From contig DATMKM010000158.1 of assembly GCA_035571315.1 (NCBI GenBank), positions 20,182 to 84,181 of the forward strand: DNA of 64,000 nt, written 5' to 3'. Made by a program: the position numbers and the translations under genes. Under the pieces are notes generated by a model. It did not search any database. It was not told the DNA's origin and was given only the letters and a program-made list of their open reading frames with translations. Shown in pieces: positions 18,791 to 55,038 of this stretch. The DNA is from Candidatus Acidiferrum sp. (GTDB lineage Bacteria; Chloroflexota; Dormibacteria; Dormibacterales; Dormibacteraceae). How positions within the stretch are numbered: the first letter of the stretch is position 1; each line of letters begins with the position of its first letter.

Positions 18791-19289
18791 GCACCACCGC
18801 TTGGACCCCGGTTTGGAATGGCGATTGAAAGTGGCACTGAACCGCGTCACACCACCCTCATCGACCCCGCGCTACCTCTCGAGTGCGCTGAATGGCGTCA
18901 GGCCGTGGCGCGTCGCGCCCTTTGCGCTCGCGGGCGCGACCGCCATCCTGCTCGCTCTTACAGCCACCGCCACGACCGGCAGTCCCAACCCAGCCGTGTG
19001 GACGGGCGACGCCGCCTCGACCATCGGTGCGGTCGGGCACCTCCCAGACCCAAGGCCCAGCCCACCGCCGAGCCCGCCGCCCCCGGCCCCGCCTCGCAAG
19101 GCCGCCGTGCCAGCTCTGGCGCACCCGCCCGCAACCGGCAGGGCGGCGCCCAGCGCTGAGCCAACCGAGCGGCCCGAGGAGTCGCCTCGACCCCGGCCCA
19201 CCGCCTCCCCCAGTCCGTCGGACGATCACTCAGGCTGGAGCTGGCCAAATCCCTCGCCGAGCCCGTATAGCGACCCGCGCGACCACTAA
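18765..19289 (+). CDS. Putative anti-sigma factor / single-pass membrane protein with a Pro-rich ectodomain
   Basis: Overlaps the sigma gene stop. ...LEWRLKVALNRVTPPSS...WRVAPFALAGATAILLALTATA (one TM helix), then a Pro/Ser-rich tail. No recognisable domain. Called from position and topology only. Confidence 0.4.
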   Translation: MRVPVPRAEHHRLDPGLEWRLKVALNRVTPPSSTPRYLSSALNGVRPWRVAPFALAGATAILLALTATATTGSPNPAVWTGDAASTIGAVGHLPDPRPSPPPSPPPPAPPRKAAVPALAHPPATGRAAPSAEPTERPEESPRPRPTASPSPSDDHSGWSWPNPSPSPYSDPRDH

Positions 19290-19359
19290 AGCGACCCTTC
19301 CTACTTTTGGGTTTCCGGGCGTTACTAGGCATCCATCGTTGGTCAACAAGGAGGACAAC

Positions 19360-19932
19360 GTGACCAGAAAGACGATATTCAAGATCGGACTCGCCTCGGC
19401 CGCGGCCGGGGTAGCCGCGATCCTGGCGATCACGTCAGCGTTCGCGCACGGGACCCCGACGACGACCGGCCGCTCAATGGTCGGAACGATCGTGAATGCG
19501 GCGACCGGCGCCACCTTCGTGTCTTTCGAGGACCAGGCTCCGACCGCGGTCATCGACGAGCAGACGGCGGACGCTGAGGAGGCTGCCGAGCTGGCCGCCA
19601 AGATCGCCGCGGAGCAAGCCGAGCTGGCCGCCAAACTCGCCGCCCAGCGGGCAGAAGAGGCCGCCGAAGCGGCCGCCGCCACATGCACCACCGCCGACCA
19701 GACCGAAGACACGAGCGAGGCTGCCGCCGACCAGTCAGAGGACTCGGCTGAGAAGACCAACGGAACCGAGAGCGCCGCGGAAGACTCCGCCGAGCAGGCC
19801 GCCAGGCAGGCTACCGACAAGCCTGAGGACGCGGCTGAAGTGAAGTGCGCCGCAACAGAGGGCGAGCACCACAGCGACGGCGACAGCCACGAAAGCAGTA
19901 CCAAGACGTTCTCGTCTGAGGGCGACCACTAA
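19360..19932 (+). CDS. Secreted acidic Ala/Glu-rich protein (hypothetical)
   Basis: GTG 19360 is preceded by AAGGAGG (19349..19355). VTRKTIFKIGLASAAAGVAAILAITSAFA-HG is a signal peptide. The mature part is low-complexity: AEEAAELAAKIAAEQAELAAKLAAQRAEEAAEAAA...SEGDH. Confidence 0.5.
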   Translation: MTRKTIFKIGLASAAAGVAAILAITSAFAHGTPTTTGRSMVGTIVNAATGATFVSFEDQAPTAVIDEQTADAEEAAELAAKIAAEQAELAAKLAAQRAEEAAEAAAATCTTADQTEDTSEAAADQSEDSAEKTNGTESAAEDSAEQAARQATDKPEDAAEVKCAATEGEHHSDGDSHESSTKTFSSEGDH

Positions 19933-19979: not shown

Positions 19980-20846
19980 TTATTTCCGGCGCTGCACGAA
20001 CTGAAAGCCGAAGCGTCCCTTCACACAGAGGTGGCCAGCGGTGACGCTGTGGTCGAGCGGCGAAGTCACCTTCACGATCGAGTTGTCCTGCACATGCAGC
20101 TCGAGCATGCAGCCGACCCCGCAATAGGGGCAAACCGTCTGGGTCACGGTCTGAGCCGGCTCATCCCACGTTCCCGCCTGGCGCATGTCGTACTCGCTCT
20201 TGAACATCAGGGCTCCAGTTGGGCAAACGCCGATGCAGTTGCCGCAGTACACGCAGGCCGATTCGGGCAGCGGCGTGGTGAACTCCGTGGAGATGTGGGC
20301 GTCGAAGCCGCGACCCGCCACCCCGATGGCGAACGTGTTCTGCGCGTCGACGCCGCAGGCCTCGACGCACTTGTAGCAGAGGATGCAGCGCGAGTAATCC
20401 CGCACATACAGGTCGTTGTCGATCTTCACCGGCTGAGCGACGGTCGCGACGTTCGCGCCGAACCGACCAGGTGTCGCGCGGTAGCGCGACATCCACCCGT
20501 GCACCTCCTGCGAGCAGAGCGACATGTCCACGGACGACGCGAGCAGCTCGAGCACGAGCCGGCGGCTGTGTCGTACCCGCTCCGAATCCGTCTGGATCTT
20601 CATGCCCGCCTCGACCTTGCGCGAGCAGGCGGGCACGAGCACGCGCGATCCCTCGAGCTCCACCACGCAGACCCTGCATACGTTGACCGGCGTCAGTGTC
20701 TCCAGCTGGCACAGCGTTGGCGTGTCGATCTGCAGCCGGCGGCAGGCGTCGAGGATGGTCGCGCCTTCGAGCACATCGACCTCGTGGCCGTCGATGCTGA
20801 CTTTGACGAACCGCTTGGGCAAGCCGACGAACACAGGCTCAGCCAT
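19980..20846 (-). CDS. Formate dehydrogenase alpha, N-terminal Fe-S module (2Fe-2S, two 4Fe-4S ferredoxin motifs, and the Mo-bisPGD-domain [4Fe-4S] segment)
   Basis: 288 aa. C46-x10-C57-x2-C60-x13-C74; CILCYKCVEAC; CVYCGNCIGVCP; then CPYCGVGCMLEL...LCVKGRFGFQFVQRRK*, which is the first ~50 residues of an FdhF-type catalytic domain. 8-nt overlap (ATGGCTGA) with the upstream gene. Confidence 0.85.
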   Translation of the reverse strand: MAEPVFVGLPKRFVKVSIDGHEVDVLEGATILDACRRLQIDTPTLCQLETLTPVNVCRVCVVELEGSRVLVPACSRKVEAGMKIQTDSERVRHSRRLVLELLASSVDMSLCSQEVHGWMSRYRATPGRFGANVATVAQPVKIDNDLYVRDYSRCILCYKCVEACGVDAQNTFAIGVAGRGFDAHISTEFTTPLPESACVYCGNCIGVCPTGALMFKSEYDMRQAGTWDEPAQTVTQTVCPYCGVGCMLELHVQDNSIVKVTSPLDHSVTAGHLCVKGRFGFQFVQRRK

Positions 20847-22650
20847 CGATCACCGCCAGCTGAGTGAGCCCGGATGCAATCGCGTTCGCCGCCGTTTGAC
20901 CCAGACCGCAAATCGACGCGTCACGCATCGCCTGCGCGATGTCGCTGAGCAGGGCGACGTCAGATTCCTGGCGATCCGTCAGCAGACGATGAAGCACCTC
21001 CTCCTGCCTCACGGTCCCGACGCGGCATGGCACGCACTGGCCGCACGACTCGTCGCGGAAGAAGCGCGCGATGCGGAGCAGGATCTGTTTCAAATCGGCC
21101 GTGTCGTCGAGCACGATGACCGCTCCAGAGCCGAGCGTGGCACCGATTCCTCTTGTCCCTTCGAAGCTGAGCGCAACGTCAAGCTGCCGCTCCGTTACGA
21201 AGGAGCCGGCCGCGCCGCCCAGGAGCACGGCCTGCAACAGTCTCCCGGCGGGTAGGCCTCCAGCCAGGTCGATCAGAGCCCGCAGAGTGGTGCCCATCGG
21301 GACCTCGTAGAGGCCCGGCTCGCGAACATGCCCCGACACGCAGAAGAGGCGAGTGCCTGTGGAATCCGCCGTGCCGGTCGCTGCAAATGCGGCGCCGCCT
21401 TCGACGACGATGTCCAGTACGTTGACGAGCGTCTCAACGTTGTTGATGAGCGTCGGCTTACCGAAGAGGCCTGCCTCGACGGGGAACGGCGGTTTGTTGC
21501 GCGGTTCACCCCGTTTGCCCTCGATCGAGTTGAAAAGCGCGGTCTCCTCACCGCAAATGTAGGCCCATGCGCCGCGGCGGACTTCGATGTCGAAATCGAG
21601 AAGCCCGGCCGCTTTGGTCTGCGCGATCGCATGCTCTATGCGCTGCCTGGCGAGCGGGTACTCGCCGCGGACGAACACGTAGCCCTTGTCGCAACCGGTG
21701 GCGAAGGCGGCGATCGCCATGGCCTCCACGACCGCAAACGGGTCGCGTTCGAGCAGCTCTCTGTCTTTGAAGGTTCCGGGTTCGGACTCGTCGGCGTTAC
21801 AGACGAGGTAGTGGGGACGCGCGGGAGCCTTGGAAACGGAATCCCATTTGCGCCCAGTGGGAAAGGCCGCGCCACCACGGCCAAGCAGCCTGGCGTCGGT
21901 CAGCTCGCGGATGACACCTTCAGGACCAAGCTCCCTTGCCCGCCGCAGCGCGGCAAAACCACCATGCTCGCGATAGCTGTCGATGCTTTCGGGATCGACA
22001 AGGCCAATGCGCCGAAGCATTCTCCCTGCGCCAGCAGCGGAACGTTCAGGAAGTCCCATCCTGGACGGGCTTGCGCCTGAGTTGGTGGGCTCAGGCCAAG
22101 CGCCACCACTCAGGATGGCCTGCGCAGCTATCGATGTGATCGGCGCGATCTGCAGCTCCTCATGAGTCATGCCCGCGCGCTCCACGAGCGCCGCCGGCGC
22201 TCGATCACACAAGCCAAGGCAAGGGCTGCGATGCCATTCCTTGCCCGCCGGGCCGACCGACTTGTCGAGCGCGGCGCACAGCTCATCGGCCCCGGCGCAT
22301 TTACAAGCGATGTCGTCGCAGACGTGGAGCGCGAGCGCGGGTCTTGATTCGAGCGCGAAGCGACCGTAGAAGCTCGCCACCCCGTACGCTTCGGCGGGCG
22401 GGATCGACAGCCTCCGGCACGCATACTCCAGAGCGCCACGGCTCACCCAGCCGACCGTGTCTTGAATGGCGTGGAGGACAGGAAGTAGCAGCGGGCGCTG
22501 AGACCGCGCAGCCCGACCCCCGAAGGCGACGTGATCGTCCGCCGGTCGGCGTTCGCCTCCCTCCCAGAGCGACAGTGGCTCGCCCAGCACACCGTCGACC
22601 GCCGCCTTCTCCTCGGCTGTCGCCGGCCCCCCGGTGGTCCGGATATCCAC
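20839..22650 (-). CDS. NuoE-like + NuoF-like fusion (FDH gamma/beta diaphorase; NAD(H)/FMN/Fe-S)
   Basis: 603 aa. N-terminal part ...LLLPVLHAIQDTVGWVS...HVCDDIACKCAG...SPCLGLCDRAP (NuoE 2Fe-2S). Then GRGGAAFPTGRKW...YLVCNADESEPGTFKDRELLERDP...ESCGQCVPCR (NuoF). The GTG start shares 1 nt with the upstream TAG. Confidence 0.85.
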   Translation of the reverse strand: MDIRTTGGPATAEEKAAVDGVLGEPLSLWEGGERRPADDHVAFGGRAARSQRPLLLPVLHAIQDTVGWVSRGALEYACRRLSIPPAEAYGVASFYGRFALESRPALALHVCDDIACKCAGADELCAALDKSVGPAGKEWHRSPCLGLCDRAPAALVERAGMTHEELQIAPITSIAAQAILSGGAWPEPTNSGASPSRMGLPERSAAGAGRMLRRIGLVDPESIDSYREHGGFAALRRARELGPEGVIRELTDARLLGRGGAAFPTGRKWDSVSKAPARPHYLVCNADESEPGTFKDRELLERDPFAVVEAMAIAAFATGCDKGYVFVRGEYPLARQRIEHAIAQTKAAGLLDFDIEVRRGAWAYICGEETALFNSIEGKRGEPRNKPPFPVEAGLFGKPTLINNVETLVNVLDIVVEGGAAFAATGTADSTGTRLFCVSGHVREPGLYEVPMGTTLRALIDLAGGLPAGRLLQAVLLGGAAGSFVTERQLDVALSFEGTRGIGATLGSGAVIVLDDTADLKQILLRIARFFRDESCGQCVPCRVGTVRQEEVLHRLLTDRQESDVALLSDIAQAMRDASICGLGQTAANAIASGLTQLAVIDG

Positions 22651-24563
22651 TAGGCCCGGGCGCCCGCGTGCAGCTTGTCGATCCTGATCGCGCTCGCCTT
22701 GAACTCCGCGGTACCCGACTTGGGGTCGGTCGCGTCGATGGTCAGCACGTTGGTGGCCACCTGGTCCGGGAAGTGGAGCGTCATGAACGCCAACCCGGGC
22801 CGCAGCGATTCTTCGAAGCGGATCGGCACCTCAACCGAGCCGCGCCGCGAGCTGGCAAGCACCCGCTCGCCGTCGTGGAGGCCGAGCCGCTCGCCGTCGA
22901 CCGGCGATATGAGCAGCGCCTCCCTCGTGCGCAGCGGGGAGGTATACCCGCCCGTCTGGACGCCGGTGTTGAAGGAATCGAGGCGTCGACCGGTCGTCAG
23001 TCTGATCGGAAACTCCTCGGTGAGGTGATCGACAGGAGGATCGTGCTCCACTACGGAGAACGGGGCGAGCATTCCCTCCGCCGGGTCCTTCCACAGCCGG
23101 GCGTGCAGGAATTGTGTTCCGGGGTGCGACTCATCCGGACACGGCCACTGGATGCCGCCGAGCTCGTCGAGGCGGGCATATGACATTCCGGCGTGCATCG
23201 GCGAGAGGCTGCGACACTCGTCCCACACCTGCTCCGCGCTCGGTTGTCCCCATTCACACCCCAGCCTGCGGGCCAGCTCGCAGATGATCTCGAGGTCGTC
23301 TCGCGCGCCGTCCGGGGGCTCGAGGGCGCGGCGGACACGCTGCACGCGCCGCTCGCTGTTGGTGACGGTGCCATCCGACTCGGCCCAGCCCGCGGAGGCC
23401 GGCAGCACGACGTGAGCGAGCTCTGCGGTCTGGGTCAAGAAGATGTCCTGCACCACCAGGTGCTTGAGGCTACTGAGCAGACGCACGGCGCGAGTCTGGT
23501 CGGCCTCGCTGCGCGCGGGGTTCTCGCCCACGATGTAGGCGGACGTCAGCTCGCCGTGCTCCATGGCTTCGAACATCTCGCTCAGGTGGTAGCCCTTCTT
23601 CTCCGGAAACTGTGCGCCACCCCACGCGCGCGAGAACTTGTCGTGAACGGCCCGGTCCTCTAGGTCCTGGAAGCCGGGCAGGCGCGCCGGGATGGCGCCC
23701 ATGTCACCGCCGCCCTGCACGTTGTTCTGCCCGCGCAGCGGGTTGAGGCCGCAGCCGTAGCGGCCGACCTTCCCGGTTAGAAGCGCCAGGTTGATGAGCG
23801 CGAGCACGTTGTCGGTGGCGTTGTGATGCTCGGTGATGCCCAGCGTCCAGCAGATCATCGCCTGGTCGGCTCGCCCGTACTCGAGCGCAACATCTCGGAT
23901 CGCATAAGCAGGCACGCCAGTCTCTTTCTCCGCAACCTCCAGCGTGTATGGCTCGACGCAACTGGCGAACTCCTCATAGCCAGTAGTGGCGCGCGCTATG
24001 AACTCCTTGTTCGCCAGGCCAGCGTGGATGATCACGCGCGCCATCGCGTTGGCCAGTGCGATGTCGCTGCCGACGTCGATGCCCAACCACACGTCCGCCC
24101 ACTCCGCGGAGCTGGTGCGACGCGGGTCCACCGCGACGAGGCGGGCTCCGTTGCGCACACCGCGCAGCAGATGATGGAAGAAGATCGGGTGAGTCTCGCG
24201 AGCGTTCGAGCCCCACAGGATCACGAGGTTCGTGTCCTCAGCCTCGCGATAGGAACTGGTCCCTCCCCCGGCACCGAACACTGTCGCCAGACCGGCGACG
24301 CTGGGAGCGTGTCAAGTCCGATTGCAGCTGTCGATGTTGTTGCTGTGCATGACGGCCCGGGCGAACTTCTGCGCGATGTAGTTCATCTCGTTGCTCTGCT
24401 TGGAGCAGCTGAACATGCCGAAGGCGTTGGGTCCCCGGTCCCTGGCCGAGGCGAAGCCGGCCGCAGCCCGCTCGAGCGCTTCGTCCCAGGTGGCGGGACG
24501 CAACCGCCCGCTTTCCCTGACGAGCGGTTCCGTCAGACGGACAAGCCCGTCATCCATGAACAC
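22650..24563 (-). CDS. fdhA: Formate dehydrogenase catalytic (Mo/W-bisPGD) subunit, selenocysteine-containing, lacking its own N-terminal Fe-S segment
   Basis: Joins ORF 24312..24563 and ORF 22650..24281 (same frame) through TGA 24312..24314: ...WDEALERAAAGF...NYIAQKFARAVMHSNNIDSCNRT-U-HAPSVAGLATVFGAGGGTSSY...NPLRGQNNVQGGGDMGA...TAEFKASAIRIDK. Colinear with E. coli FdhF from about residue 60 onward. Start is GTG 24563 or ATG 24557. Confidence 0.85.
24283..24299 (-). promoter_or_regulatory. Candidate bacterial SECIS hairpin
   Basis: mRNA reads UGA-CACGCUCCCAGC-GUCGCC-GGUCU-GGCGAC. 6-bp stem with a GGUCU loop starting 18 nt after the UGA, the same loop sequence and spacing as I recall for E. 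coli fdhF. Confidence 0.65.
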
Positions 24564-24650
24564 GACAATATCCCGATTTGCACCCGTCGAGCCAAACGGG
24601 CGAAATTCCCCGCGGTGGGCAAGGGCTCGTTTGGCGCCAAACGGGTCGAA

Positions 24651-25838
24651 TCAGCGCTGCGGGTTCGCTGCGATGAACTCCCCGATCCGCTCCAGACCCA
24701 GCTTCAGCTCGTCTTCCGACTGCGTGTAGGCCAGGCGGATGAAGCCCTTTCCCGCGTGCCCGAACGCCGTCCCCGGCAGCACCGCCACGCCGGCTTCGGC
24801 CAGCAGCCGATCCGAAAGCTCGTGCTCGTTGAAGCCCGTCCCCTCGATGTTCGGAAACACGTAGAACGAACCCTGAGGGCGAGCGCAGCGCACGCCGGGG
24901 ATCTCGTTCAGCCCGTCCACCACCAGGTTCCGCCGGTGTTCGAACACCTTCACCATGCGCGCGACTGCATGCTCTGACTCGGGCGCGCTGAGCGCCTCGA
25001 TCGCCGCCATCTGTGTGAAACCCGCGGCGCAGGACGAGGAGTTGATCATCAGCTGGTCGAGCTTGGCCGCGAGCGCCCTGGGAGCCACCGCGTAGCCGAG
25101 CCGCCAGCCGGTCATCGCGTATGACTTCGAGAGACCATCCATGAGAACCGTGCGCTCGCGCATGTCGGGGTGCGACAGCGGCGACACATGCTGAAAGCCG
25201 TACACGAGCTGGCTGTAGATCTCGTCGGACACCACTAGAAGGTCGTGCCTGTGGGCGAGCTCGCACACGAACGTCACGTCCTCTTCGGTCAAGATGCCAC
25301 CGGTCGGGTTCTGCGGGGTGTTCACGATGAGCATCCGTGTCTTCGGCGTCACGAGTGATGCGAGCTCGTCGAGGTCCATCCGGAAGCCGGAATCCTCGCG
25401 CAGCGTCACAGGCTTGGCAACCGCTCCGATGAAGTTGACCTGCGACGCGTATGCGGGATAGCCGGGGTCGGGAAGGATCACCTCGTCGCCCGGCTCGATG
25501 CATGCGAGCAAGGTGAAGAGCAGCACATTTTTCGAGCCTGGGACCAGCACCACCTCCAGCGGATCGACCTCCGTCTTCAGCGTGCGCGAGACGAAGCCGG
25601 CCACGGCCTCGCGTGCTTCGAAGATGCCGCTGGCCGGGGTGTAGTGCGTGTAGCCGTTCTGCATCGCCGAGATGCCGGCCTCGACTATGTTGTCCGGGGT
25701 CGCGAAGTCGGGCTCACCAATCTCCAGATGGACGATCTTCTTGCCCTGCGCCTCGAGGCGCCTTGCCTTCGCCAGCACCTCGAAGGCGCCCTCGGTGCCG
25801 AGGCGCGACATCCGCTCCGCAAACCTGATGGCGCTCAT
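24651..25838 (-). CDS. Class I/II PLP-dependent aminotransferase (aspartate/aromatic type)
   Basis: 395 aa. ...IVHLEIGEPDFATPDNIVEAG...YTPASG...NTPQNPTGG...SKSYAMTGWRLGY... Confidence 0.85.
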   Translation of the reverse strand: MSAIRFAERMSRLGTEGAFEVLAKARRLEAQGKKIVHLEIGEPDFATPDNIVEAGISAMQNGYTHYTPASGIFEAREAVAGFVSRTLKTEVDPLEVVLVPGSKNVLLFTLLACIEPGDEVILPDPGYPAYASQVNFIGAVAKPVTLREDSGFRMDLDELASLVTPKTRMLIVNTPQNPTGGILTEEDVTFVCELAHRHDLLVVSDEIYSQLVYGFQHVSPLSHPDMRERTVLMDGLSKSYAMTGWRLGYAVAPRALAAKLDQLMINSSSCAAGFTQMAAIEALSAPESEHAVARMVKVFEHRRNLVVDGLNEIPGVRCARPQGSFYVFPNIEGTGFNEHELSDRLLAEAGVAVLPGTAFGHAGKGFIRLAYTQSEDELKLGLERIGEFIAANPQR

Positions 25839-28636: not shown

Positions 28637-29251
28637 CTAGCTCCACACCGAGGAGAAGCGGGTCTCGATGGCGGCCCAGTTCAGCGTGTTGAACCAGGCG
28701 GCCACGTAGTCCGCCCGTTTGTTCTGGTACTTGAGGTAGTAGGAGTGCTCCCAGACGTCGACTCCGACGATGGGGGTCAAACCTTCCATGTAGGGGCTGT
28801 CCTGGTTGGGATAGCCCTTGACGGCCAGCTTGGCTTGCTTGTCGACTACCAGCCACGCCCAGCCGCTGCCGAACTGGCCAACCGCTGTCTTCTGGAGCAG
28901 TTCCTTGAAAGCGTCGTAGCTGCCAAAGGTGGTCTTGATGGCGTCTCCGATCCGGCCTTGCGGGTTGCCGCCGCCGCCCGGCCCCATGATCGTCCAGAAG
29001 ATCGAGTGGTTCGAATGACCGCCCGCGTTGTTGCGGATGACATTGCGGATGTCCTCGGGCACCTCGTTGATACCCCAGAGCAGGTCCTCCACCGACTTGG
29101 CCGCCAGCGCGGGATGATTCTCGAGCGCCTTGTTGGCATTGGCGATATAGGCCGCGTGGTGCTTGTCATGATGGATCTCCATCGTCATGGCGTCGATATG
29201 GGGCTCGAGAGCATCGAACCCGTAGGGAAGCGGCGGAAGCACAAATGGCAT
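28637..29251 (-). CDS. sodA: Fe/Mn superoxide dismutase
   Basis: 204 aa. LPPLPYGFDALEPHIDAMTMEIHHDKHH...DVWEHSYYLKYQNKRADY. GGGAGGG SD 8 nt upstream. Confidence 0.9.
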   Translation of the reverse strand: MPFVLPPLPYGFDALEPHIDAMTMEIHHDKHHAAYIANANKALENHPALAAKSVEDLLWGINEVPEDIRNVIRNNAGGHSNHSIFWTIMGPGGGGNPQGRIGDAIKTTFGSYDAFKELLQKTAVGQFGSGWAWLVVDKQAKLAVKGYPNQDSPYMEGLTPIVGVDVWEHSYYLKYQNKRADYVAAWFNTLNWAAIETRFSSVWS

Positions 29252-29299
29252 TGCGGAACCCTCCCGTGGTCTGAATTTGTCTTTTACCCAGGAATCAGT

Positions 29300-30082
29300 C
29301 TAAGAGGTCGGCGATTCCGAACCAGGAGATCTTGAGGCCTGCGCCCCGACGGCCGCCGCGCGGCGCTCGATCTCGTCGGGGTCGCCGAGATAGCGCCACG
29401 ACTCCGGTTTGAAGCCCGCGTCCAATTCGTACACGCGCGGCACGCCGGTCGGGATGTTCAGCTCGACCACCTCATCATCGCTGAGCCCGTCGAGGTGCTT
29501 GACCAGCGCGCGGAGGCTGTTTCCATGCGCGGAGACCATCACGCATTGGTATCGAAGAAGGTCCGGCACGATCGCGTCGTACCAGTAGGGGAGCATCCGC
29601 TCAACCACGTCTTTCAGGCACTCGGCCCGCGGCAGGAGCTCAGGTGGCAGCTCCGCGTAGCGCCGGTCGTGTGATGGATGGCGCTCGTCGGATGGATCGA
29701 GGTCGGGTGGCCGCACGTCATAACTGCGCCGCCACACCTTGACTTTGTCCTCACCGTACTGGGCCGCCGTCTGGGCCTTGTTCAGGCCCTGCAGGGCTCC
29801 GTAGTGCCGTTCGTTCAGACGCCAGCTCCGCCGCACGGGGATCCAGGTCAGGCCCATCTCGGCCAGCGCCAGGTCAGACGTTTCGATCGCCCGCACCAGC
29901 ACGGAGGTATGCACCACATCGGGCGACAGGCCCGCCTCTTTCATCAGCCGCCCAGCCTCGAGTGCCTCCTCGACGCCGTGGGGACTGAGCGGAACGTCAT
30001 GCCAACCCGTGAATAGGTTCTCGAGGTTCCAGGTGCTCTGCCCATGCCTGAGCAGAACAAGGGTGAATGGTTTGGTCACCAC
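29300..30082 (-). CDS. gpmA: 2,3-bisphosphoglycerate-dependent phosphoglycerate mutase
   Basis: 260 aa. [26 protein letters not shown]...[18 protein letters not shown]...[14 protein letters not shown] start. Confidence 0.9.
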
Positions 30083-30145
30083 CCCGCTCGCCAGGGAGGT
30101 CGGCCTTGCCCGCAGGGCTGCGCCGCGTGGGGGGACTCGAGCTTC

Positions 30146-30937
30146 CTACCGATGTCCGTACACCTCGGCCGTCACTTTTACGATGTGCGCGAACTCCGCC
30201 GCGTCAAGACTCGCCCCGCCGACCAGGACGCCGTCGCACAGCGGCAGCTCGACGTACGCCTCGACATTGGCCGAGTTGACGCTGCCCCCATAAAGGATCC
30301 GGACCTTGCGCGCGGCGCCCGCGCCGATCATGTCCCCGACGACCCGGCGGATCAGCCTCATCGTCTTGTAGGCGTGCTCCGGGTCGGCACTCTTGCCGGA
30401 TCCGATGGCCCAGACCGGCTCGTAGGCGATCACAAGGCGGGCGGAATCGTCGGCCGAGCAGTTCGCCAGCCCCGCCCTGACCTGCGCCTCGACGACCTGG
30501 TCGGAGGTGCCCGCGTCATAGTGGTCGGCCAGCTCGCCCACGCACATGATCACGCTCAGCTCGCATCCGAGGGCGGCGGCGGTCTTCTTGGACACCATCT
30601 CGTCCGTCTCGGCGAGGTAGATCCGGCGCTCAGAGTGGCCGGTGATAACCCACTGACACCAACCCTTCAGCATGGCCGGCGAGACCTCGCCGGTGAAGGC
30701 GCCCGAAAGCTCCCAGAAGCAGTCCTGGGCGCCGAGCTCGACGCCGGACTCGGCGATCACCTCCGACACGCTCATCAGCCAGGGAAAAGGCGGAAAGATC
30801 GCCACCTCGACCCGGTCCGCGTGCCCCCGCGCCACCGACAAGACGCCGCGGACCAGATCCAGGGCGTCGCCCGCATCGTTCGGGTTCATCTTCCAGTTCG
30901 CCGCCACCAGGGGCATCGGCGAGACTCGCGAAGCCAT
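30146..30937 (-). CDS. tpiA: Triosephosphate isomerase
   Basis: Start ATG 30937 shares 1 nt with the pgk TGA. MASRVSPMPLVAANWKMN...ITGHSERR...AYEPVWAIGSG...YGGSV. The upstream 105 codons of ORF 30146..31252 are discarded. Confidence 0.9.
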   Translation of the reverse strand: MASRVSPMPLVAANWKMNPNDAGDALDLVRGVLSVARGHADRVEVAIFPPFPWLMSVSEVIAESGVELGAQDCFWELSGAFTGEVSPAMLKGWCQWVITGHSERRIYLAETDEMVSKKTAAALGCELSVIMCVGELADHYDAGTSDQVVEAQVRAGLANCSADDSARLVIAYEPVWAIGSGKSADPEHAYKTMRLIRRVVGDMIGAGAARKVRILYGGSVNSANVEAYVELPLCDGVLVGGASLDAAEFAHIVKVTAEVYGHR

Positions 30938-32103
30938 CAGGCCTCCTTGAGGATCGCGATGCCGGGCAGTACTTTGCCCTCCAGGTACTCGAGGGTTGCG
31001 CCGCCCCCGGTCGAAACGTGCGAGAAACGTCCGCTCAGCCCAAGGGATTCGATGGCCGCGACCGTATCGCCCCCACCGACCAGCGTGTAACCGCCGGAGG
31101 TTGCGATCGCCTCGCCGATCGCCCTTGTCCCATCGCTGAAATCGCGGATCTCGGATACCCCCATGGGCCCATTCCAGACGACGGCGCCGGCGCCGCGCAG
31201 CCTTTGGGCGTAAAGCGCCACTGACTTGGGCCCGATGTCGAGCGCCATCCAACCTGGTTCCACCTTGTCTGCGTCCATGATGCGCAACGGCTGCCCAGCC
31301 TCCATCCGGCGCGCGCAGACGAGATCGACCGGAAGCAGCAGCTTGCCACCTGCCTGGTCGGCCACCTCCCTGGCCTCCTCCAACGCGGAGTCCTCGACGA
31401 GCCCGCTCCCTGTCGGATAACCCTGCGCCTTGAAGAAGGTGTTGGCCATCGCGCCCCCGATGATCAGCGCGTCGACCTTCTTCAGCAGGTTGCGCAGGAC
31501 GCCTACTTTGGTCGAGACCTTGGCGCCGCCTACCACCGCGATCATCGGGCGCCGCGGGTTGTCCAGGGCCTGGTGCAAGGCCTTGAGCTCGGCCTCCATC
31601 AGCTCACCCGCATAGGCGGGTAAGTAGGCGGCAACCCCGACCACCGACGCGTGTGCGCGGTGGGAAGCGCCGAAGGCGTCGTTCACGTAGAGCTGTCCGA
31701 GCGCCGCCAGCCGGCGAGCGAAGTCCGGGTCGTCCGCCTCGTCTTCGGGGTGAAAGCGCACGTTCTCGAGCAGCAGGACCTGGCCGTCGTGCAAGTTGTC
31801 GACGGCCGTTTGCGCCGGCTCCCCGACACAATCCGCCGCGAACTGCACCTCGCGTTCGAGCGCGTGCGCCAGCTGCGACGAGACCGGCCGCAGGGAGAGC
31901 TCCGGCTCCACGCCCTTCGGCCGCCCCAGGTGTGACATAACGATCACGTTGGCCCCGCGGTTGGCCAGGTGGAGAAGCGTCGGAACCGCGGCGCGAATCC
32001 GAGAATCGTCCGTGATCGTCCCCTTCGACATCGGCACGTTGAGGTCCTCGCGGACGAGGACTCGTTTGCCCGCGACTTCGACAGACGTGATCGAAACCTT
32101 CAG
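30937..32103 (-). CDS. pgk: Phosphoglycerate kinase
   Basis: ...KVSITSVEVAGKRVLVREDLNVPM...VMSHLGRPKG...VSTGGGATLEYLEG. The N-terminus of homologues aligns to a start at CTG 32103 (CTGA with the gap stop). Canonical alternatives are GTG 32157 and GTG 32190. Confidence 0.9.
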   Translation of the reverse strand: MKVSITSVEVAGKRVLVREDLNVPMSKGTITDDSRIRAAVPTLLHLANRGANVIVMSHLGRPKGVEPELSLRPVSSQLAHALEREVQFAADCVGEPAQTAVDNLHDGQVLLLENVRFHPEDEADDPDFARRLAALGQLYVNDAFGASHRAHASVVGVAAYLPAYAGELMEAELKALHQALDNPRRPMIAVVGGAKVSTKVGVLRNLLKKVDALIIGGAMANTFFKAQGYPTGSGLVEDSALEEAREVADQAGGKLLLPVDLVCARRMEAGQPLRIMDADKVEPGWMALDIGPKSVALYAQRLRGAGAVVWNGPMGVSEIRDFSDGTRAIGEAIATSGGYTLVGGGDTVAAIESLGLSGRFSHVSTGGGATLEYLEGKVLPGIAILKEA

Positions 32104-33110
32104 AGGGATTCCGCCATGTACGCGGTGAGGTCGACCATGCGGCAGCTGAAGCCCCACTCGTTGTCGTACCAGCTCACCACCTTCGCCCACTGGCCGCCGA
32201 GCATCGCCGTCACCGGGGCGTCGACGATCGAGGAGTGCGGATCACCCTTGAAATCCGAGGAGACGAGCTCTTCGTGGCTGACGGCGAGGATGCCACGCAG
32301 CTCTCCGCTCGCAGCCTCTTCGAACGCGGCGTTGACGTCCTGGGCCGTCGTCGTTTTGGTGAGCTCGACGGTCAGGTCCACCACGGACACGTCCAGAATC
32401 GGCACCCTGAAGGAGATGCCGGCGAACTTACCCGCCAGCTCGGGCAGCACCTCCGCGACCGCGCGGTTGGCACCAGTCGAAGTCGGAATGATGTTGTCCG
32501 CGGCGGCCCGCGCCCGGCGGAGGTCCTTGTGCGGAAGGTCCTGCAGCTTCTGGTCCGCGGTGTAAGCGTGGATCGTCGTCATCATTCCCCGCTCGATGCC
32601 GAACGAGTCGTGCAGGACCTTGGCCAGCGGCACGAAGCAATTGGTCGTGCAGCTCGCGTTGGAGATGACGTCGTGCTTCGCGCTGTCGTAGCCCTTGTGG
32701 TTGACGCCCATGACCACCGTGTAGTCCTGGTTGGTCGCGGGCGCCGAGATGATCACCTTCTTGGCGCCCCCCTTGTCGATGTGCACGCGCGCCTTGTTGG
32801 CGTCGGTGAAAAGACCGGTCGACTCGATGACGAGCTCGACGCCAAGATCCTTCCACGGGAGCTCAGCCGGATCCCGGTGGCTCAGGAACTTGACGGTCCG
32901 GCCGTCCACTTTGATGGCGTCCTCGGTGGATGACACCGGCGGGCCGAATGTGCCGAGCGCCGTGTCGTGCTTCAGGAGATGCGCGAACGTGTGCGCATCG
33001 CCGATGTCGTTGACCGCCACGATCTCGAAGTCCGCCTTGAGCATGTGGGCGGCGCGGAAGATGTTCCGGCCGATCCGGCCGAAACCGTTGATACCGACCT
33101 TCAAGGTCAT
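32100..33110 (-). CDS. gap: Type I glyceraldehyde-3-phosphate dehydrogenase
   Basis: 336 aa. MTLKVGINGFGRIGRNIFR...SNASCTTNC...WYDNEWG. AGGAG SD 9 nt upstream. Confidence 0.95.
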   Translation of the reverse strand: MTLKVGINGFGRIGRNIFRAAHMLKADFEIVAVNDIGDAHTFAHLLKHDTALGTFGPPVSSTEDAIKVDGRTVKFLSHRDPAELPWKDLGVELVIESTGLFTDANKARVHIDKGGAKKVIISAPATNQDYTVVMGVNHKGYDSAKHDVISNASCTTNCFVPLAKVLHDSFGIERGMMTTIHAYTADQKLQDLPHKDLRRARAAADNIIPTSTGANRAVAEVLPELAGKFAGISFRVPILDVSVVDLTVELTKTTTAQDVNAAFEEAASGELRGILAVSHEELVSSDFKGDPHSSIVDAPVTAMLGGQWAKVVSWYDNEWGFSCRMVDLTAYMAESL

Positions 33111-33202
33111 GTGGGCAAGCTCCTATTGATGGCGGGCAAGAACCCTGGGGGCGAATCCCGGCGGCGAATCCCCGATGAACTCGGTGAACGACGGACGTAA
33201 TG

Positions 33203-34126
33203 TTAGGCGGAGCGGCGCGCTCGCTTGGCCGTTGCCGCGGCGCCTCGCGAATCGGCCAGCTCCTGCAGACGGCGCAGGCGGTGGTTGACCGCGGACTTCG
33301 AAAGCTTCATCCGCCCAGCCAGCTCATCCAGGTTCAGCTCCGGATGCTCGCTGCGCCAGCGGGCCATCTCGCGCAGCGCGGGCGGAAGGCCATCCAGCCG
33401 GCCGCTGCCCTCGAGCCGCTCGATCGCCGCCGCCTGGCGAAGACCGGAGCCGATCGTCTTGCCGATGTTGGCCGTTTCGAAGTTGAGCCGGCGGTTCACC
33501 TCGCCGCTTACCTCGCGCATCACCCGCACGCTCTCGAACTCCATCACCGCGCGGCTGGCGCCCATCAAGGAAAGCAGGCGGACGATCGCATCACCTTCTT
33601 TCAGGTACGCCACGTGCTGCCCGCCCCGCTCCATCACGCCGACCTTCACGTCAGCCGAACCGGCCATCTTCACGACCGCCTCGGCCCACGTATCAGTGGG
33701 GACGACAAACTCGAGGTGGTAGCGGGAGCTCGGCACGTTGACCGAACCGCAGCCCAGGAACAGACCGCGCAACATCGCCTTGCGGTCACAGGCGGCATCG
33801 GGCATGGCTTTCATAGCGGACTGCGTAAACGCCGGAACGAGGCCCTGCGGCAGCGCCAGCTCGATGAAAAAGGACATGCGCTTTCGCGTCTTGACAGCCT
33901 GGTATTTGGCGTCCATGTGTCCGACGGCGCGACCCAGCCTGACCACCTTCCGCGCCACAGCGTTGCGCAGTAATGAGAAGTAAGCGGCCTGCCCTGGCTC
34001 ACCTGGTCGCCTGATCAGCCTCGCGCGCGAGCCGAAATAGATCCCGAGCAGCTCGCTGAGCTGGCAGCAGGGTCGCGCCGGCATGAGCCCGGCCATCTCG
34101 TTCTTGACGTCCGCCGAGAACGAAAT
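33203..34126 (-). CDS. whiA: DNA-binding sporulation/cell-division regulator WhiA
   Basis: ...CCQLSELLG...LAGLIDADG-like core...C-terminal HTH LSKSAVNHRLRRLQELA. The conserved N-terminus (I)SFSADVKNEMAG lies upstream of the first ATG. Start inferred at ATT 34126..34124, 6 nt after GGAGG. Confidence 0.85.
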   Translation of the reverse strand: MSFSADVKNEMAGLMPARPCCQLSELLGIYFGSRARLIRRPGEPGQAAYFSLLRNAVARKVVRLGRAVGHMDAKYQAVKTRKRMSFFIELALPQGLVPAFTQSAMKAMPDAACDRKAMLRGLFLGCGSVNVPSSRYHLEFVVPTDTWAEAVVKMAGSADVKVGVMERGGQHVAYLKEGDAIVRLLSLMGASRAVMEFESVRVMREVSGEVNRRLNFETANIGKTIGSGLRQAAAIERLEGSGRLDGLPPALREMARWRSEHPELNLDELAGRMKLSKSAVNHRLRRLQELADSRGAAATAKRARRSA

Positions 34127-34210
34127 CGCTTACCTCCAAAGGCAGTGGTGACTTTCCCCCGACCCAGATCGCAGTGTACCCCTGGGGCCGTGGCGCTGGA
34201 CAATGGTCAG

Positions 34211-35194
34211 GTGGCCGAAATGAGGATGATCGAGGCGGTGCGTGCCGCCATGGGTGAGGAGATGGCGCGGGACGATCGGGTGCTCGTCATGGGCGAGGAC
34301 GTGGGCCGCAAAGGGGGGGTGTTCGGAGCGACGGACGGCCTCTACGCGCGCTTCGGCGAAGCCCGCGTGCTGGACACGCCGCTCGCCGAGTCGGCCATCG
34401 TCGGAGTCGCCATCGGCGCCGCCCTCAACGGTCTCATCCCCATCGCCGAGATCCAGTTCGCGGACTTCATTCATCCGGCGTTCGACCAGATCGTGAGCGA
34501 GGCCGCGCGCACACGCTACCGCTCCAACGGGGACTGGTCCGTCCCGATCGTCATCCGCACGCCGTTCGGGGGCGGAGTCCACGGAGGGCTCTACCACTCG
34601 CAGTCGATCGAGGCCTTCTACGCGCACGTGCCGGGGTTGAAGGTCGTGGTGCCGAGCATGCCCGCGGACGCGCACGGGCTGCTCAAATCAGCCATTCGCG
34701 ACCCTGACCCGGTGTTGTTCCTCGAGCACAAGAAGCTCTACCGCCTGGTCGCGGAGCAGGTCCCTGACGGCGACCACCTGGTCCCGATCGGCCCCGCCGT
34801 GGTGCGGCGTGAGGGCGCCGCCCTGAGCTGCTTCGCTTGGGGGCTGATGACCCACTACTGCCTGGAGGCCGCGGCACAGCTGGAGACCGAAGGAGTGAGC
34901 GTGGAGGTCGTTGACCTCCGCACGCTGGCGCCGCTCGATCGGGACGCCATCCTGCAATCGGTGCGCAAGACCGGAAAAGCAATGGTCGTGCACGAGGACA
35001 ACCTGACCGGCGGTTTCGGCGCCGAGGTGGCCGCGATCATCTCCGAGCACGCCTTCGGCGACCTCGACGGCCCGGTGGTCCGGGTGGCGGCGCCGGACAT
35101 CCCGGCCATGCCGTTCAACACTCCTCAGGAGGAGTTCTTCATGCCAAACCCACACAAGATCGCCGACGCGATGCGAAAACTTGCCGCGTACTAA
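34211..35194 (+). CDS. 2-oxoacid (pyruvate/branched-chain) dehydrogenase E1 component, beta subunit
   Basis: ...MIEAVRAAMGEEMARDDRVLVMGEDVG..GGVFGATDGLYARFGEARVLDTPLAES...AEIQFADF...RTPFGGGVHGGLYHSQS. Start is GTG 34211 or ATG 34220. No E1-alpha or E2 gene is adjacent. Confidence 0.85.
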   Translation: MAEMRMIEAVRAAMGEEMARDDRVLVMGEDVGRKGGVFGATDGLYARFGEARVLDTPLAESAIVGVAIGAALNGLIPIAEIQFADFIHPAFDQIVSEAARTRYRSNGDWSVPIVIRTPFGGGVHGGLYHSQSIEAFYAHVPGLKVVVPSMPADAHGLLKSAIRDPDPVLFLEHKKLYRLVAEQVPDGDHLVPIGPAVVRREGAALSCFAWGLMTHYCLEAAAQLETEGVSVEVVDLRTLAPLDRDAILQSVRKTGKAMVVHEDNLTGGFGAEVAAIISEHAFGDLDGPVVRVAAPDIPAMPFNTPQEEFFMPNPHKIADAMRKLAAY

Positions 35195-38295: not shown

Positions 38296-38519
38296 TCGCT
38301 GTCCAGGTTTCGCCGTTCGCCGAGGTAGCGACCAAGATTCGCCAGGTCGCCGCGCACCTTGTTGAGGGCCCGTTGCGCCTCACGATCGCCCAGGTCCATG
38401 TACGCGACCGCGGCCAAATAGAGGTCGGCGCGCTCGAGCTGACGCATGGCAGAGCGCAGAACCGTGCGCCGCTCGTTGGCGGTCCTCGTCTCTGGAAGCT
38501 GAACGATGGCGTTGCGCAT
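38292..38519 (-). CDS. Small helical hypothetical protein, translationally coupled to the permease
   Basis: 75 aa, MRNAIVQLPETRTANERRTVLRSAMRQLERADLYLAAVAYMDLGDREAQRALNKVRGDL... The stop overlaps the permease TTG start (TTGA). No recognised domain. Confidence 0.4.
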   Translation of the reverse strand: MRNAIVQLPETRTANERRTVLRSAMRQLERADLYLAAVAYMDLGDREAQRALNKVRGDLANLGRYLGERRNLDSD

Positions 38520-38622
38520 CTCTTCACGGTAGAAGCCAGGTCGTTAGGTCCCCGTTTGGCCTCGGCGATTATCCCTATGGATTCTGTATGGAGGCGGCTC
38601 CGATCCTTTAACCTCGCCTGAG

Positions 38623-40473: not shown

Positions 40474-40480
40474 CAGCTCA

Positions 40481-41161: not shown

Positions 41162-41162
41162 G

Positions 41163-47115: not shown

Positions 47116-47122
47116 GCGATCG

Positions 47123-47128
47123 ATTTTA
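47123..47128 (-). promoter_or_regulatory. -10-like hexamer TAAAAT, 7 nt upstream of the uvrC GTG (possible leaderless transcript)
   Basis: The transcribed strand reads cc-TAAAAT-cgatcgc-GTG. No SD and no convincing -35. Confidence 0.25.

Positions 47129-52954: not shown

Positions 52955-55038
<2,084 letters not shown>

What the first reader, a model, noticed from the sequence alone, without database searches (positions are those of the whole stretch)
24283..24314. In-frame UGA in the formate dehydrogenase catalytic gene is a selenocysteine codon with an fdhF-like SECIS
The ORF track ends an 83-aa ORF at TGA 24312..24314 and restarts at GTG 24281. Both are in the same frame, 33 nt apart, with no other stop between them. 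Reading through gives ...KFARAVMHSNNIDSCNRT-[UGA]-HAPSVAGLATVFGAGGG.... This aligns position-for-position with the active-site stretch of E. coli FdhF (...NNVDCCARV-U-HGPSVAGL...), where that position is selenocysteine. Twelve nt after the UGA the mRNA can fold as GUCGCC-GGUCU-GGCGAC. The GGUCUG begins 18 nt after the UGA, which is the loop sequence and spacing I recall for the E. coli fdhF SECIS (UGA-N18-GGUCUG). Standard gene callers would report two fragments or a pseudogene here.
Basis: partly seen in the sequence, partly recalled or inferred. Interest (0 to 1): 0.7.

Follow-up and report, generated by a model that had tools for sequence, protein, structure and literature searches.

The report
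Selenocysteine codon in split formate dehydrogenase
The in-frame TGA is a real selenocysteine codon, followed by its recoding hairpin, in the catalytic gene of a formate dehydrogenase from an uncultured soil bacterium (Dormibacterota-like); this kind of recoding is well known and gene callers routinely miss it, but the enzyme is unusual in being split into two genes placed in swapped order.

Summary
TGA 24314..24312 (- strand) joins an 83-aa and a 543-aa ORF in one frame. It aligns with Sec140 of E. coli FdhF and with Cys in fused relatives. A 6-bp/5-nt-loop hairpin (24299..24283) places GGUCUG at +22..+27 from the UGA, the same register as in E. coli fdhF.

The decisive evidence is comparative:
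- All 83 related loci keep TGA at this codon.
- The hairpin codons are the least variable synonymous sites of the whole gene. The few stem changes keep pairing.
- Both sides of the TGA are under purifying selection (dN/dS about 0.05-0.28).
- About 24 relatives carry selD, tRNA-Sec, selA and selB directly upstream.

TGA is otherwise the commonest stop in the window.

Not shown: the sel genes of this organism. None lie in the window or in 8.6 kb beyond it, and the tools cannot scan its genome. The Rfam SECIS_3 match is far below threshold.

The gene is not fdhF-like in architecture. It encodes only the Mo/W domains. The FS0 [4Fe-4S] domain sits at the C-terminus of a NuoG-like protein two genes downstream, after a NuoE-NuoF fusion. 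The order is conserved across relatives.

The Sec site is a new member of a known kind. The split, reordered enzyme may be undescribed.

The parts
22650..24563 (-). Complete read-through CDS of the catalytic (Mo/W-bisPGD) subunit. It is 637 aa from GTG 24563, or 635 aa from ATG 24557, with Sec at residue 84 and stop TAG 22652..22650. Domains are Molybdopterin (PF00384) and Molydop_binding (PF01568). There is no Fe4S4 domain.
   Evidence: Translation. Pfam. TIGR01591 Fdh-alpha positions 53-672, 649.3 bits. PDB matches to FdhF/FdsA/HDCR FdhF at E 1e-115 to 1e-145. Gene callers split it into 81 + 543 aa.
24312..24314 (-). In-frame UGA, inferred selenocysteine codon (the Mo/W ligand, equivalent to Sec140 of E. 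coli FdhF), followed by the catalytic His.
   Evidence: Aligned to X140 of 1aa6_A and to Cys of P0126/P0129/P0131/P0132/P0134/P0141. TGA in 83/83 related loci.
24283..24299 (-). Inferred SECIS hairpin at +16..+32 from the U of UGA. The 5' stem arm is 24299..24294 (GUCGCC), the loop is 24293..24289 (GGUCU), and the 3' stem arm is 24288..24283 (GGCGAC). It encodes V-A-G-L-A-T(first two bases of the Thr codon).
   Evidence: Fold -11.0 kcal/mol for nt 13-36. All 6 pairs are canonical or G-U in 78 distinct sequences. The only changes, C20>U and A31>G, keep pairing. Lowest synonymous entropy in the gene. Unique exact match in the window. RF01989 aligns over 24317..24259 in register with the UGA, but at 17.3 bits.
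24282..24311 (-). The 30 nt between the TGA and the 'restart' GTG, encoding HAPSVAGLAT. The segment is translated, not a spacer.
   Evidence: The amino acids are conserved in 82 distinct sequences, while codons +2, +3, +4 and +10 vary synonymously (H 1.35-1.78).
20839..22650 (-). Gene 2: a 603-aa NuoE-NuoF fusion (2Fe-2S thioredoxin-like, FMN/NAD(H)-binding 51K, SLBB, NADH_4Fe-4S). It is the inferred diaphorase module. Its start GTG overlaps the gene-1 stop (TAGTG), and it ends with an ordinary TGA.
   Evidence: Pfam. NCBIfam NuoF/NuoE/FDH gamma. Sequence.
19980..20846 (-). Gene 3: a 288-aa NuoG-N-terminal-like Fe-S protein (2Fe-2S and 4Fe-4S domains). The Molybdop_Fe4S4 (FS0) domain, CPYCGVGC...CVKG, sits at its extreme C-terminus. 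This is the missing N-terminal part of FdhA. Its ATG overlaps the gene-2 stop (ATGGCTGA).
   Evidence: Pfam residues 233-285 = PF04879. TIGR01591 positions 1-50. Translation. Same gene order in all related loci.

Best explanation
TGA 24314..24312 is decoded as selenocysteine. The inferred mechanism follows the E. coli/Moorella paradigm. While the ribosome holds UGA in the A site, the mRNA hairpin at +16..+32 (apical loop GGUCU) is bound by the C-terminal winged-helix domain of SelB carrying GTP and Sec-tRNA(Sec). SelB then delivers Sec in competition with RF2.

The product is one polypeptide of about 636 aa. Sec84-His85, together with the downstream Arg of the RGQ motif, form the formate-oxidising Mo/W-bisPGD active site.

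This polypeptide is only the catalytic half of an FdsA-type alpha subunit. Its proximal [4Fe-4S] (FS0) domain and the NuoG-like Fe-S chain are supplied by the 288-aa product of gene 3. A NuoE-NuoF fusion (gene 2) supplies FMN and NAD(P)+ reduction. The three genes are linked by overlapping stop/start codons, consistent with translational coupling.

Shown here: the codon homology, the hairpin, their evolutionary constraint, and the Sec machinery next to orthologues. Inferred: SelB binding, actual Se incorporation, assembly of the three products, and NAD+ as the acceptor.
For: 1. Position: the TGA aligns with Sec140 (X) of E. coli FdhF 1aa6_A and of an F420-dependent FDH (9t1s_L), and with Cys in the fused relatives P0126, P0129, P0131, P0132, P0134 and P0141. 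The catalytic His follows it, and the RGQ Arg motif is present.
2. Hairpin: GGUCUG sits at +22..+27 in both the window and E. coli K-12 fdhF.
3. Conservation: 83/83 loci (Dormibacterota-, Chloroflexota-, Gaiellales-, Acidobacteriota-, Rokubacteria- and Planctomycetota-labelled MAGs, 74-92% aa identity) have TGA here.
4. RNA-level selection: codons +5..+9 have synonymous entropy 0/0/0.28/0/0, against 1.3-2.0 nearby. They are the lowest of 272 4-fold codons in 73 full-length genes. The stem changes (C20>U in 22 sequences, A31>G in 1) preserve pairing.
5. One translated protein: dN/dS is 0.07-0.28 upstream and 0.05-0.20 downstream of the TGA at dS 0.55 to above 1, with no other stops. The TGA-to-GTG spacer shows amino-acid conservation with synonymous variation.
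6. Machinery: tRNA-Sec was found in 21 related loci (ARAGORN; Rfam RF01852 at 66-79 bits against GA 47). SelB (GTP_EFTU + SelB-wing_3), SelD (AIRS) and SelA lie within 10 kb upstream of the orthologous gene.
7. UGA is a normal stop in this genome: 20 of 43 window genes, including gene 2 of this operon.
Against: - No selA, selB, selC or selD in the 64-kb window, in 8.6 kb beyond it, or within 10 kb of the gene in the 26 Dormibacterota-like loci. Sec decoding capacity of this organism is therefore inferred, not shown.
- The Rfam bacterial SECIS model RF01989 scores only 17.3 bits (GA 63, E 0.28 in a 301-nt search), and part of that score reflects coding homology.
- The hairpin's folding energy is unremarkable for 66% GC DNA (z = +0.53).
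- No compensatory double changes were seen, because the stem is nearly invariant. Pairing is therefore supported by constraint and by two pair-preserving single changes, not by covariation.
- No expression or selenium-labelling data exist.
Confidence: 0.93

Rival explanations
1. The TGA is a genuine stop. The locus is either a pseudogene or encodes two independent products: an 81-83-aa N-terminal peptide and a 543-aa protein re-initiated at GTG 24281.
For: This is how the ENA and NCBI records examined here, and most database entries, annotate it (81 + 543 aa). No sel genes are seen near the gene in Dormibacterota-like loci.
Against: - Both fragments would lack the metal ligand and the catalytic His.
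- The TGA, the frame and both flanks are preserved in 83 loci with dN/dS 0.05-0.28 and no further stops.
- The 10 codons between the TGA and the GTG are conserved as amino acids with synonymous variation, so they are translated.
- No Shine-Dalgarno-like sequence precedes GTG 24281.
- Orthologues sit beside sel gene clusters.
Confidence: 0.02
2. UGA is read through but not as Sec. Candidates are Cys or Trp inserted by a suppressor or tRNA-Sec-like tRNA, or near-cognate read-through, in a Dormibacterota lineage that lost the Sec pathway. Recoding variants of this sort have been reported in uncultured bacteria (my own recollection of Mukai et al. 2016, which appears in the reference list of PMC5424206).
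For: The Sec machinery of this organism was not observed. Cys is functional at this site in many relatives.
Against: - If Cys sufficed, a one-step TGA>TGC/TGT change would be expected in some of 83 lineages, and none has it.
- The SelB-type hairpin is under strong synonymous constraint within the Dormibacterota-like subset too.
- Relatives with the same hairpin carry canonical selA, selB, selC and selD.
- UGA is the commonest stop in the window.
Confidence: 0.03
3. The hairpin is incidental: a by-product of the conserved V-A-G-L-A peptide and GC-rich codon preference, with no RNA function. UGA recoding would then depend on something else.
For: The peptide VAGL is conserved even in Cys-type FDHs. 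The fold is not thermodynamically exceptional. The Rfam hit is sub-threshold.
Against: - The same amino acids (V, A, G, L) elsewhere in the gene use 3-4 codons freely (mean H 1.30), while here a single codon each is used in 73-82 distinct sequences. One of these is the non-preferred GGT.
- The one amino-acid change tolerated in the stem (A>V, GCC>GUC) converts C-G to U-G.
- Register and loop equal those of the E. coli fdhF SECIS.
Confidence: 0.02

Closest known systems
E. coli FdhF (formate dehydrogenase H, b4079) Sec140 and its fdhF SECIS
   Same: The active-site stretch is the same: CxR(V/T)-U-H-(G/A)-P-S-V-A-G-L. UGA is at the homologous codon. The loop motif GGUCUG lies at +22..+27. The catalytic His and the RGQ Arg are present.
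   Different: - The stem differs: E. coli has a 4-nt loop with a bulged U17, while here there is a perfect 6-bp stem, a 5-nt loop and a paired U17.
- FdhF is a monomer that carries its own FS0 domain and feeds hydrogenase 3. This protein lacks FS0 and sits in a NuoEFG-type operon.
- Identity was not computed for FdhF; the phmmer match to 1aa6_A is E = 3.5e-137. Fused Cys-type relatives in the representative search are about 33-45% identical.
Cytoplasmic NAD+-dependent FDHs: FdsABG(D) of Rhodobacter capsulatus/Cupriavidus necator (6tg9/6tga) and Methylorubrum extorquens FDH1 (7vw6/7e5z)
   Same: The module set is the same: a NuoG-like Fe-S N-terminus + FS0 + Mo/W domains, plus NuoE- and NuoF-like diaphorase. 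A single beta subunit combining NuoE- and NuoF-like parts is how I recall MeFDH1 (my own recollection; not checked here). The Mo domain matches FdsA residues 308-931 (E 2e-119).
   Different: - The characterised enzymes use Cys, not Sec (review PMC13397495).
- Their alpha subunit is one polypeptide. Here it is cut exactly between FS0 and the Mo domain, and the two halves are encoded in the order C-terminal half, NuoEF, N-terminal half.
- No FdsD or FdsC was seen next to the operon.
Rfam RF01989 (SECIS_3), a bacterial SECIS model whose consensus encodes the FDH motif V-U-H-G-P-T-V-A-S-L
   Same: The alignment is full-length (model positions 1-59) and in register with the UGA and the GUCU loop.
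   Different: The score is 17.3 bits against a gathering score of 63. The model's lower stem is not supported here, since positions 12-15/33-36 pair in only 21-77% of sequences.
Other Mo/W-bisPGD enzymes whose catalytic unit is divided between polypeptides, for example formylmethanofuran dehydrogenase FwdB/FwdD (my own recollection, not tested)
   Same: They give a precedent that domains of the catalytic subunit can be supplied in trans.
   Different: There the C-terminal cap domain is the separate piece. Here it is the N-terminal FS0 [4Fe-4S] domain, fused instead to the electron-transfer subunit.

Membership tests
Bacterial selenoprotein gene (Sec-UGA with in-frame bSECIS) | In-frame UGA at a position occupied by Sec or Cys in homologues | tested here: met
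   Aligned to Sec140 (X) of FdhF 1aa6_A and to Cys in six fused relatives.
Bacterial selenoprotein gene (Sec-UGA with in-frame bSECIS) | Stem-loop immediately downstream of the UGA, with an apical G/U-containing loop at the SelB-compatible distance (about 16-37 nt; the rule is from my own recollection of bSECISearch) | tested here: met
   6-bp stem at +16..+32 with loop GGUCU at +22..+26, the same register as E. coli fdhF.
Bacterial selenoprotein gene (Sec-UGA with in-frame bSECIS) | UGA and hairpin conserved beyond what the protein sequence requires | tested here: met
   TGA in 83/83 loci. The hairpin codons are the least variable synonymous sites of the gene (p = 3e-4). Stem changes preserve pairing.
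Bacterial selenoprotein gene (Sec-UGA with in-frame bSECIS) | selA, selB, selC (tRNA-Sec) and selD present in the same genome | not testable with these tools
   Absent from the window, from 8.6 kb beyond it, and from the flanks of 26 Dormibacterota-like loci. The genes are present beside the orthologue in about 24 other lineages.
Bacterial selenoprotein gene (Sec-UGA with in-frame bSECIS) | Selenium actually incorporated (75Se labelling or mass spectrometry) | not testable with these tools
   This needs an experiment.
Rfam RF01989 SECIS_3 | Covariance-model score at or above the gathering threshold (63 bits) | tested here: not met
   17.3 bits, E 0.28 in a 301-nt search. No hit at the gathering threshold in the whole window.
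TIGR01591 formate dehydrogenase subunit alpha (Fdh-alpha equivalog) | Whole-protein score at or above the curated cut-off (666.25 bits) on one polypeptide | tested here: not met
   Gene 1 read-through scores 649.3 bits over profile positions 53-672. Positions 1-50 (54.1 bits) lie on the C-terminus of gene 3. The two together would pass.
TIGR01591 formate dehydrogenase subunit alpha (Fdh-alpha equivalog) | Active-site Sec/Cys-His pair and the conserved Arg (RGQ class I motif, per PMC8808070) | tested here: met
   ...NRT-U-HAPS... and ...NPLRGQNNVQG....
FdsABG / MeFDH1-type NAD+-dependent FDH | NuoE- and NuoF-like FMN/NAD(H) module encoded with the catalytic subunit | tested here: met
   Gene 2 has 2Fe-2S_thioredx + Complex1_51K + SLBB + NADH_4Fe-4S.
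FdsABG / MeFDH1-type NAD+-dependent FDH | NuoG-like Fe-S N-terminus, FS0 and Mo domains on a single alpha polypeptide | tested here: not met
   The alpha subunit is split. No CxxCxxxC lies upstream of the Sec codon in any of 83 loci, and FS0 ends gene 3.
FdsABG / MeFDH1-type NAD+-dependent FDH | NAD+-linked formate oxidation activity | not testable with these tools
   This needs a biochemical assay.

The most novel reading that the evidence does not exclude
The window holds a representative of a very abundant soil clade of selenium-dependent, NuoEF-linked formate dehydrogenases that is systematically mis-annotated. Its alpha subunit is split exactly at the FS0/Mo-domain junction, and the halves are encoded in swapped order: Sec-containing catalytic half first, then the NuoE-NuoF fusion, then the NuoG-like half carrying FS0.

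Every member seen uses Sec. The clade spans Dormibacterota, Chloroflexota, deep Actinomycetota, Acidobacteriota, Rokubacteria and Planctomycetota, often as a mobile selD-selC-selA-selB-FDH island.

Placing the slow-to-decode Sec gene first, with stop/start overlaps, could tie synthesis of the Fe-S and flavin subunits to successful Sec insertion, and so to selenium supply. I found no description of this architecture, or of Sec use in Dormibacterota, in the searchable literature.
Probability: 0.5. Interest if true: 0.55.

Novelty: new member of a known kind. Interest (0 to 1): 0.4.

Why it matters
As a recoding event this is the textbook case. FDH alpha is the commonest bacterial selenoprotein, so the Sec call itself teaches little new biology.

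It matters in three practical ways:
1. Annotation. None of the 120 closest database entries includes the part upstream of the TGA, and nearly all of them are 541-544-aa products that begin just after it. The partner Fe-S gene, whose 90% cluster has 865 members, is named '2Fe-2S protein' or 'YjgC'. Metagenomic surveys will therefore miss or mis-score formate oxidation in Dormibacterota and many other soil lineages.
2. Selenium use. It implies selenium dependence, and a Sec-decoding system, in Dormibacterota. I found no such report for this phylum.
3. Architecture. The enzyme is a natural split of a Mo/W-bisPGD catalytic subunit from its proximal [4Fe-4S] domain. If confirmed biochemically, this is relevant to how these enzymes assemble and to engineering FDHs for CO2 reduction.

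Tried and rejected
- Rfam at gathering threshold on the whole window: no hit. At E <= 10 on 301 nt there was only a sub-threshold SECIS_3 hit and a chance COG3860 hit.
- Thermodynamic significance of the fold: not significant, so I did not use it as evidence.
- Sec machinery in the window: ARAGORN found no tRNA at all in the window. phmmer with SelA, SelB and SelD taken from locus L033 found nothing in the window or in L001-L026.
- Extending the source contig: the first two look-ups failed or returned only a 1-kb JGI contig. The third gave 8.6 kb beyond the window, with no sel genes.
I used the 543-aa ORF and a Cys-substituted query instead.
- A SelA/SelB search of the 5.8-billion-protein database to catch a hit on the known Dormibacterota contigs: considered and not run. 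Only the best 120 hits are listed, and closer Chloroflexota relatives would fill them.
- Literature searches for Dormibacterota + selenocysteine, for a split FdsA, and for the hairpin sequence: nothing relevant.
- Pfam scans of further window ORFs looking for fdhD, mobA or sel genes: only moeA is relevant.
- Genetic-code reassignment of UGA: rejected, because TGA terminates 20 of 43 window genes.
- A longer lower SECIS stem, as in RF01989: rejected, because positions 12-15/33-36 are not consistently paired.
Full report
**What is in the sequence**

On the - strand an 83-aa ORF (GTG 24563; an ATG lies two codons later at 24557) ends at TGA 24314..24312. A 543-aa ORF begins at GTG 24281 in the same frame, with no other stop between them. 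Reading through gives ...SNNIDSCNRT-[UGA]-HAPSVAGLATVFGAGGG.... The read-through product carries the Molybdopterin and Molydop_binding domains. Its best solved-structure relatives are formate dehydrogenases: HDCR FdhF, E. coli FdhF, FdsA and MeFDH1, at E 1e-115 to 1e-145. In the HMMER alignment to E. coli FdhF (1aa6_A) the TGA position falls on residue X140, the selenocysteine, in ...NNVDCCARVXHGPSVAGL.... Fused relatives from the representative search carry Cys at the same column, for example P0126 ...NCARLCHAPTVAGL....

**The hairpin**

GUCGCC-GGUCU-GGCGAC occupies +16..+32 counted from the U of UGA, which is window 24299..24283. I fetched the real E. coli K-12 fdhF gene. It reads UGA CAC GGC CCA UCG GUU GCA GGU CUG..., so GGUCUG sits at +22..+27, exactly as in the window. 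The stems differ. E. coli folds to a 4-nt loop with an unpaired U17. The window folds to a perfect 6-bp stem with a 5-nt loop. Rfam gives no hit at gathering thresholds. At a permissive threshold, RF01989 (SECIS_3) aligns full-length and in register with the UGA, but at 17.3 bits against a gathering score of 63. Folding energy is unremarkable for 66% GC DNA (z = +0.53). The single-sequence evidence is therefore suggestive only.

**Comparative evidence**

The window is ENA contig ERZ27253567:k141_2690570 (84.7 kb). Gene callers there and in NCBI relatives aa + 543/544 aa. None of the 120 best hits in the 5.8-billion-protein database covers the residues upstream of the TGA, and nearly all of them are 541-544-aa products beginning just after it. 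A scan of GTDB species genomes returned 80 loci at 74-92% identity. The closest are labelled Candidatus Dormibacteraceae/Dormibacterota. Others are labelled Chloroflexota, Gaiellales/Thermoleophilia, Acidobacteriota, Rokubacteria, Planctomycetota and more.

- All 83 related loci have TGA at this codon.
- Among 82 distinct sequences, codons +5..+9 (V-A-G-L-A, the hairpin) have synonymous-codon entropies of 0, 0, 0.28, 0 and 0. Neighbouring 4-fold codons have 1.3-2.0.
- Over 73 full-length genes and 272 conserved codons of at least 4-fold degeneracy (mean H 1.30), the four lowest values are codons +5, +8, +9 and +7. Mann-Whitney p = 3e-4, the minimum attainable.
- In 78 distinct hairpins all six pairs are canonical or G-U. 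The only stem changes are C20>U (22 sequences, an Ala>Val change) and A31>G (1 sequence), and both keep pairing. The loop is GGUCU in 74 sequences and GGGCU in 4. No pairing is conserved beyond the 6 bp.
- Against the window copy, the Dormibacterota-like loci show dN/dS of 0.07-0.28 for the 62 codons before the TGA and 0.05-0.20 for the 200 codons after it, at dS 0.55 to above 1, with no additional stops.
- The ten codons between the TGA and the 'restart' GTG are conserved as amino acids with free synonymous variation at +2, +3, +4 and +10, so they are translated.
- TGA is the commonest ordinary stop in the window (20 of 43 genes), including gene 2 of the same operon. This excludes a reassigned code.

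**Sec machinery**

The window contains no tRNA gene and no SelA, SelB or SelD homologue. Neither do 8.6 kb of the contig beyond the window or the flanks of the 26 Dormibacterota-like loci.

Other relatives do carry the machinery. In 21 of them ARAGORN finds tRNA-Sec within 10 kb upstream of the orthologous gene, and Rfam RF01852 confirms this at 66-79 bits against GA 47. About 24 loci carry SelA, SelB and/or SelD there. In L033 the order is selB, selA, tRNA-Sec, selD, a transporter, then the FDH gene. So the family is demonstrably a selenoprotein family. For this organism the machinery is inferred from the maintained TGA and SECIS, and I could not test it directly.

**What the gene really is**

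It is not an fdhF-type monomer.

- Gene 1: TIGR01591 (Fdh-alpha) matches the read-through product only over profile positions 53-672, at 649.3 bits, just under the 666.25 cut-off.
- Gene 3: positions 1-50, the FS0 [4Fe-4S] domain, are found at the extreme C-terminus of the 288-aa product of the third gene (20846..19980). The rest of that product is a NuoG-N-terminal-like 2Fe-2S/4Fe-4S protein. It ends ...CPYCGVGC...CVKGRFGFQFVQRRK*. Gene 1 begins where FdhF's ...ILTPRLKTPMIRR aligns, so nothing is lost at the cut.
- Gene 2: between them lies a 603-aa NuoE-NuoF fusion (22650..20839).
- Linkage: the genes overlap as TAGTG and ATGGCTGA.

The order 'Mo half, NuoEF, Fe-S half' holds in every related locus long enough to tell. 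None of the 83 loci has a CxxCxxxC motif in frame upstream of the Sec codon. The nearest fused relatives are only about 45% identical and use Cys. Recent reviews list the characterised NAD+-dependent enzymes (FdsABG, MeFDH1) as Cys enzymes whose catalytic alpha (FdsA) is described as one subunit carrying the Mo cofactor and its Fe-S clusters. My literature searches found no split FdsA and no report of Sec in Dormibacterota.

**Mechanism**

Shown: codon homology, the hairpin, evolutionary constraint on both, and the sel context in relatives.

Inferred from the E. coli/Moorella paradigm (my own knowledge): SelB carrying GTP and Sec-tRNA(Sec) binds the apical loop at +22..+26 while UGA is in the A site and inserts Sec84. 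Sec84 ligates Mo or W next to His85.

Inferred from domain content: gene 3 docks its FS0 domain on gene 1 and relays electrons through its Fe-S chain to the FMN of gene 2, which reduces NAD(P)+.

Speculative: putting the Sec gene first, with stop/start overlaps, ties expression of the partner subunits to successful recoding.

**Verdict**

The rivals each rate about 0.02-0.03: a true stop or pseudogene, non-Sec read-through, and an incidental hairpin.

The Sec/SECIS site is a new member of a known kind, and is of interest mainly as a systematic annotation error in an abundant soil lineage. The split, reordered, all-Sec enzyme noticed along the way is the more novel element and deserves a separate follow-up.

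Noticed in passing
window 19980..24563 (- strand): The FDH alpha subunit is split and its halves are encoded in swapped order. Gene 1 is the Mo/W domains without FS0. Gene 2 is a NuoE-NuoF fusion. Gene 3 is a NuoG-N-like Fe-S protein ending with the Molybdop_Fe4S4 (FS0) domain. The TIGR01591 profile is divided 53-672 / 1-50 between genes 1 and 3. The order is conserved in all related loci. I found no description in the literature searched.
   Followed up: partly
L033 3592..8146, and also L029, L030, L034, L038, L042-L044, L046, L049, L052-L054, L057, L059, L062, L070, L073, L075, L083: In about 24 non-Dormibacterota relatives a selB-selA-tRNA-Sec-selD cluster (with a MobA-like gene in L033) lies directly upstream of the orthologous FDH gene. 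This looks like a transferable 'Sec + FDH' island. In Dormibacterota-like loci the FDH operon instead sits between an aminotransferase gene and the trp operon, with no sel genes nearby.
   Followed up: partly
L004-L083 (record titles): Loci 75-92% identical in protein carry MAG labels from more than 8 phyla, including 'Candidatus Micrarchaeaceae archaeon', 'Eisenbacteria' and 'Verrucomicrobiia'. Those at 85-92% share the Dormibacterota synteny (aminotransferase upstream), which suggests mis-binned contigs in the SMAG catalogue. The 75-80% group suggests horizontal transfer.
   Followed up: no
L036, L056, L079, L082 (SECIS loop): Four Rokubacteria/Methylomirabilota-labelled loci have loop GGGCU instead of GGUCU (a U24>G change, GGT>GGG, synonymous). 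This is the only variation seen in the loop.
   Followed up: no
L034, L037, L049, L059, L082 (operon region): Several MFD long-read MAG copies show the FDH or NuoEF genes broken over two or three frames. These are probably sequencing frameshifts rather than decay, since the TGA and the hairpin are intact.
   Followed up: no
window 24651..24653 and 24564..24650: The upstream class-I/II aminotransferase gene (25838..24651) ends with a TGA that is in the same frame as the FDH gene. Only 87 non-conserved nucleotides separate it from the FDH start. The start itself (GTG 24563 or ATG 24557) is ambiguous, and gene callers chose the ATG.
   Followed up: partly
window 55300..56514 (- strand): A MoeA (molybdopterin molybdenumtransferase) gene lies 31 kb from the FDH operon. 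No fdhD or mobA was found among the window ORFs scanned.
   Followed up: partly
window 18892..19932 (+ strand) / 19230..19904 (- strand): The stretch just downstream of the operon has a 346-aa + strand ORF with no Pfam match. The ENA record instead calls a 190-aa gene on the strand opposite the operon, also with no Pfam match (L001 14350..14922). Its function is unknown and the region differs between relatives.
   Followed up: no
window 28637..63479: The housekeeping synteny polA, fpg, uvrB, uvrA, uvrC, rapZ, whiA, gap, pgk, tpi, secG is of the Actinomycetota/Chloroflexota (Terrabacteria) type, consistent with the Dormibacterota assignment.
   Followed up: no
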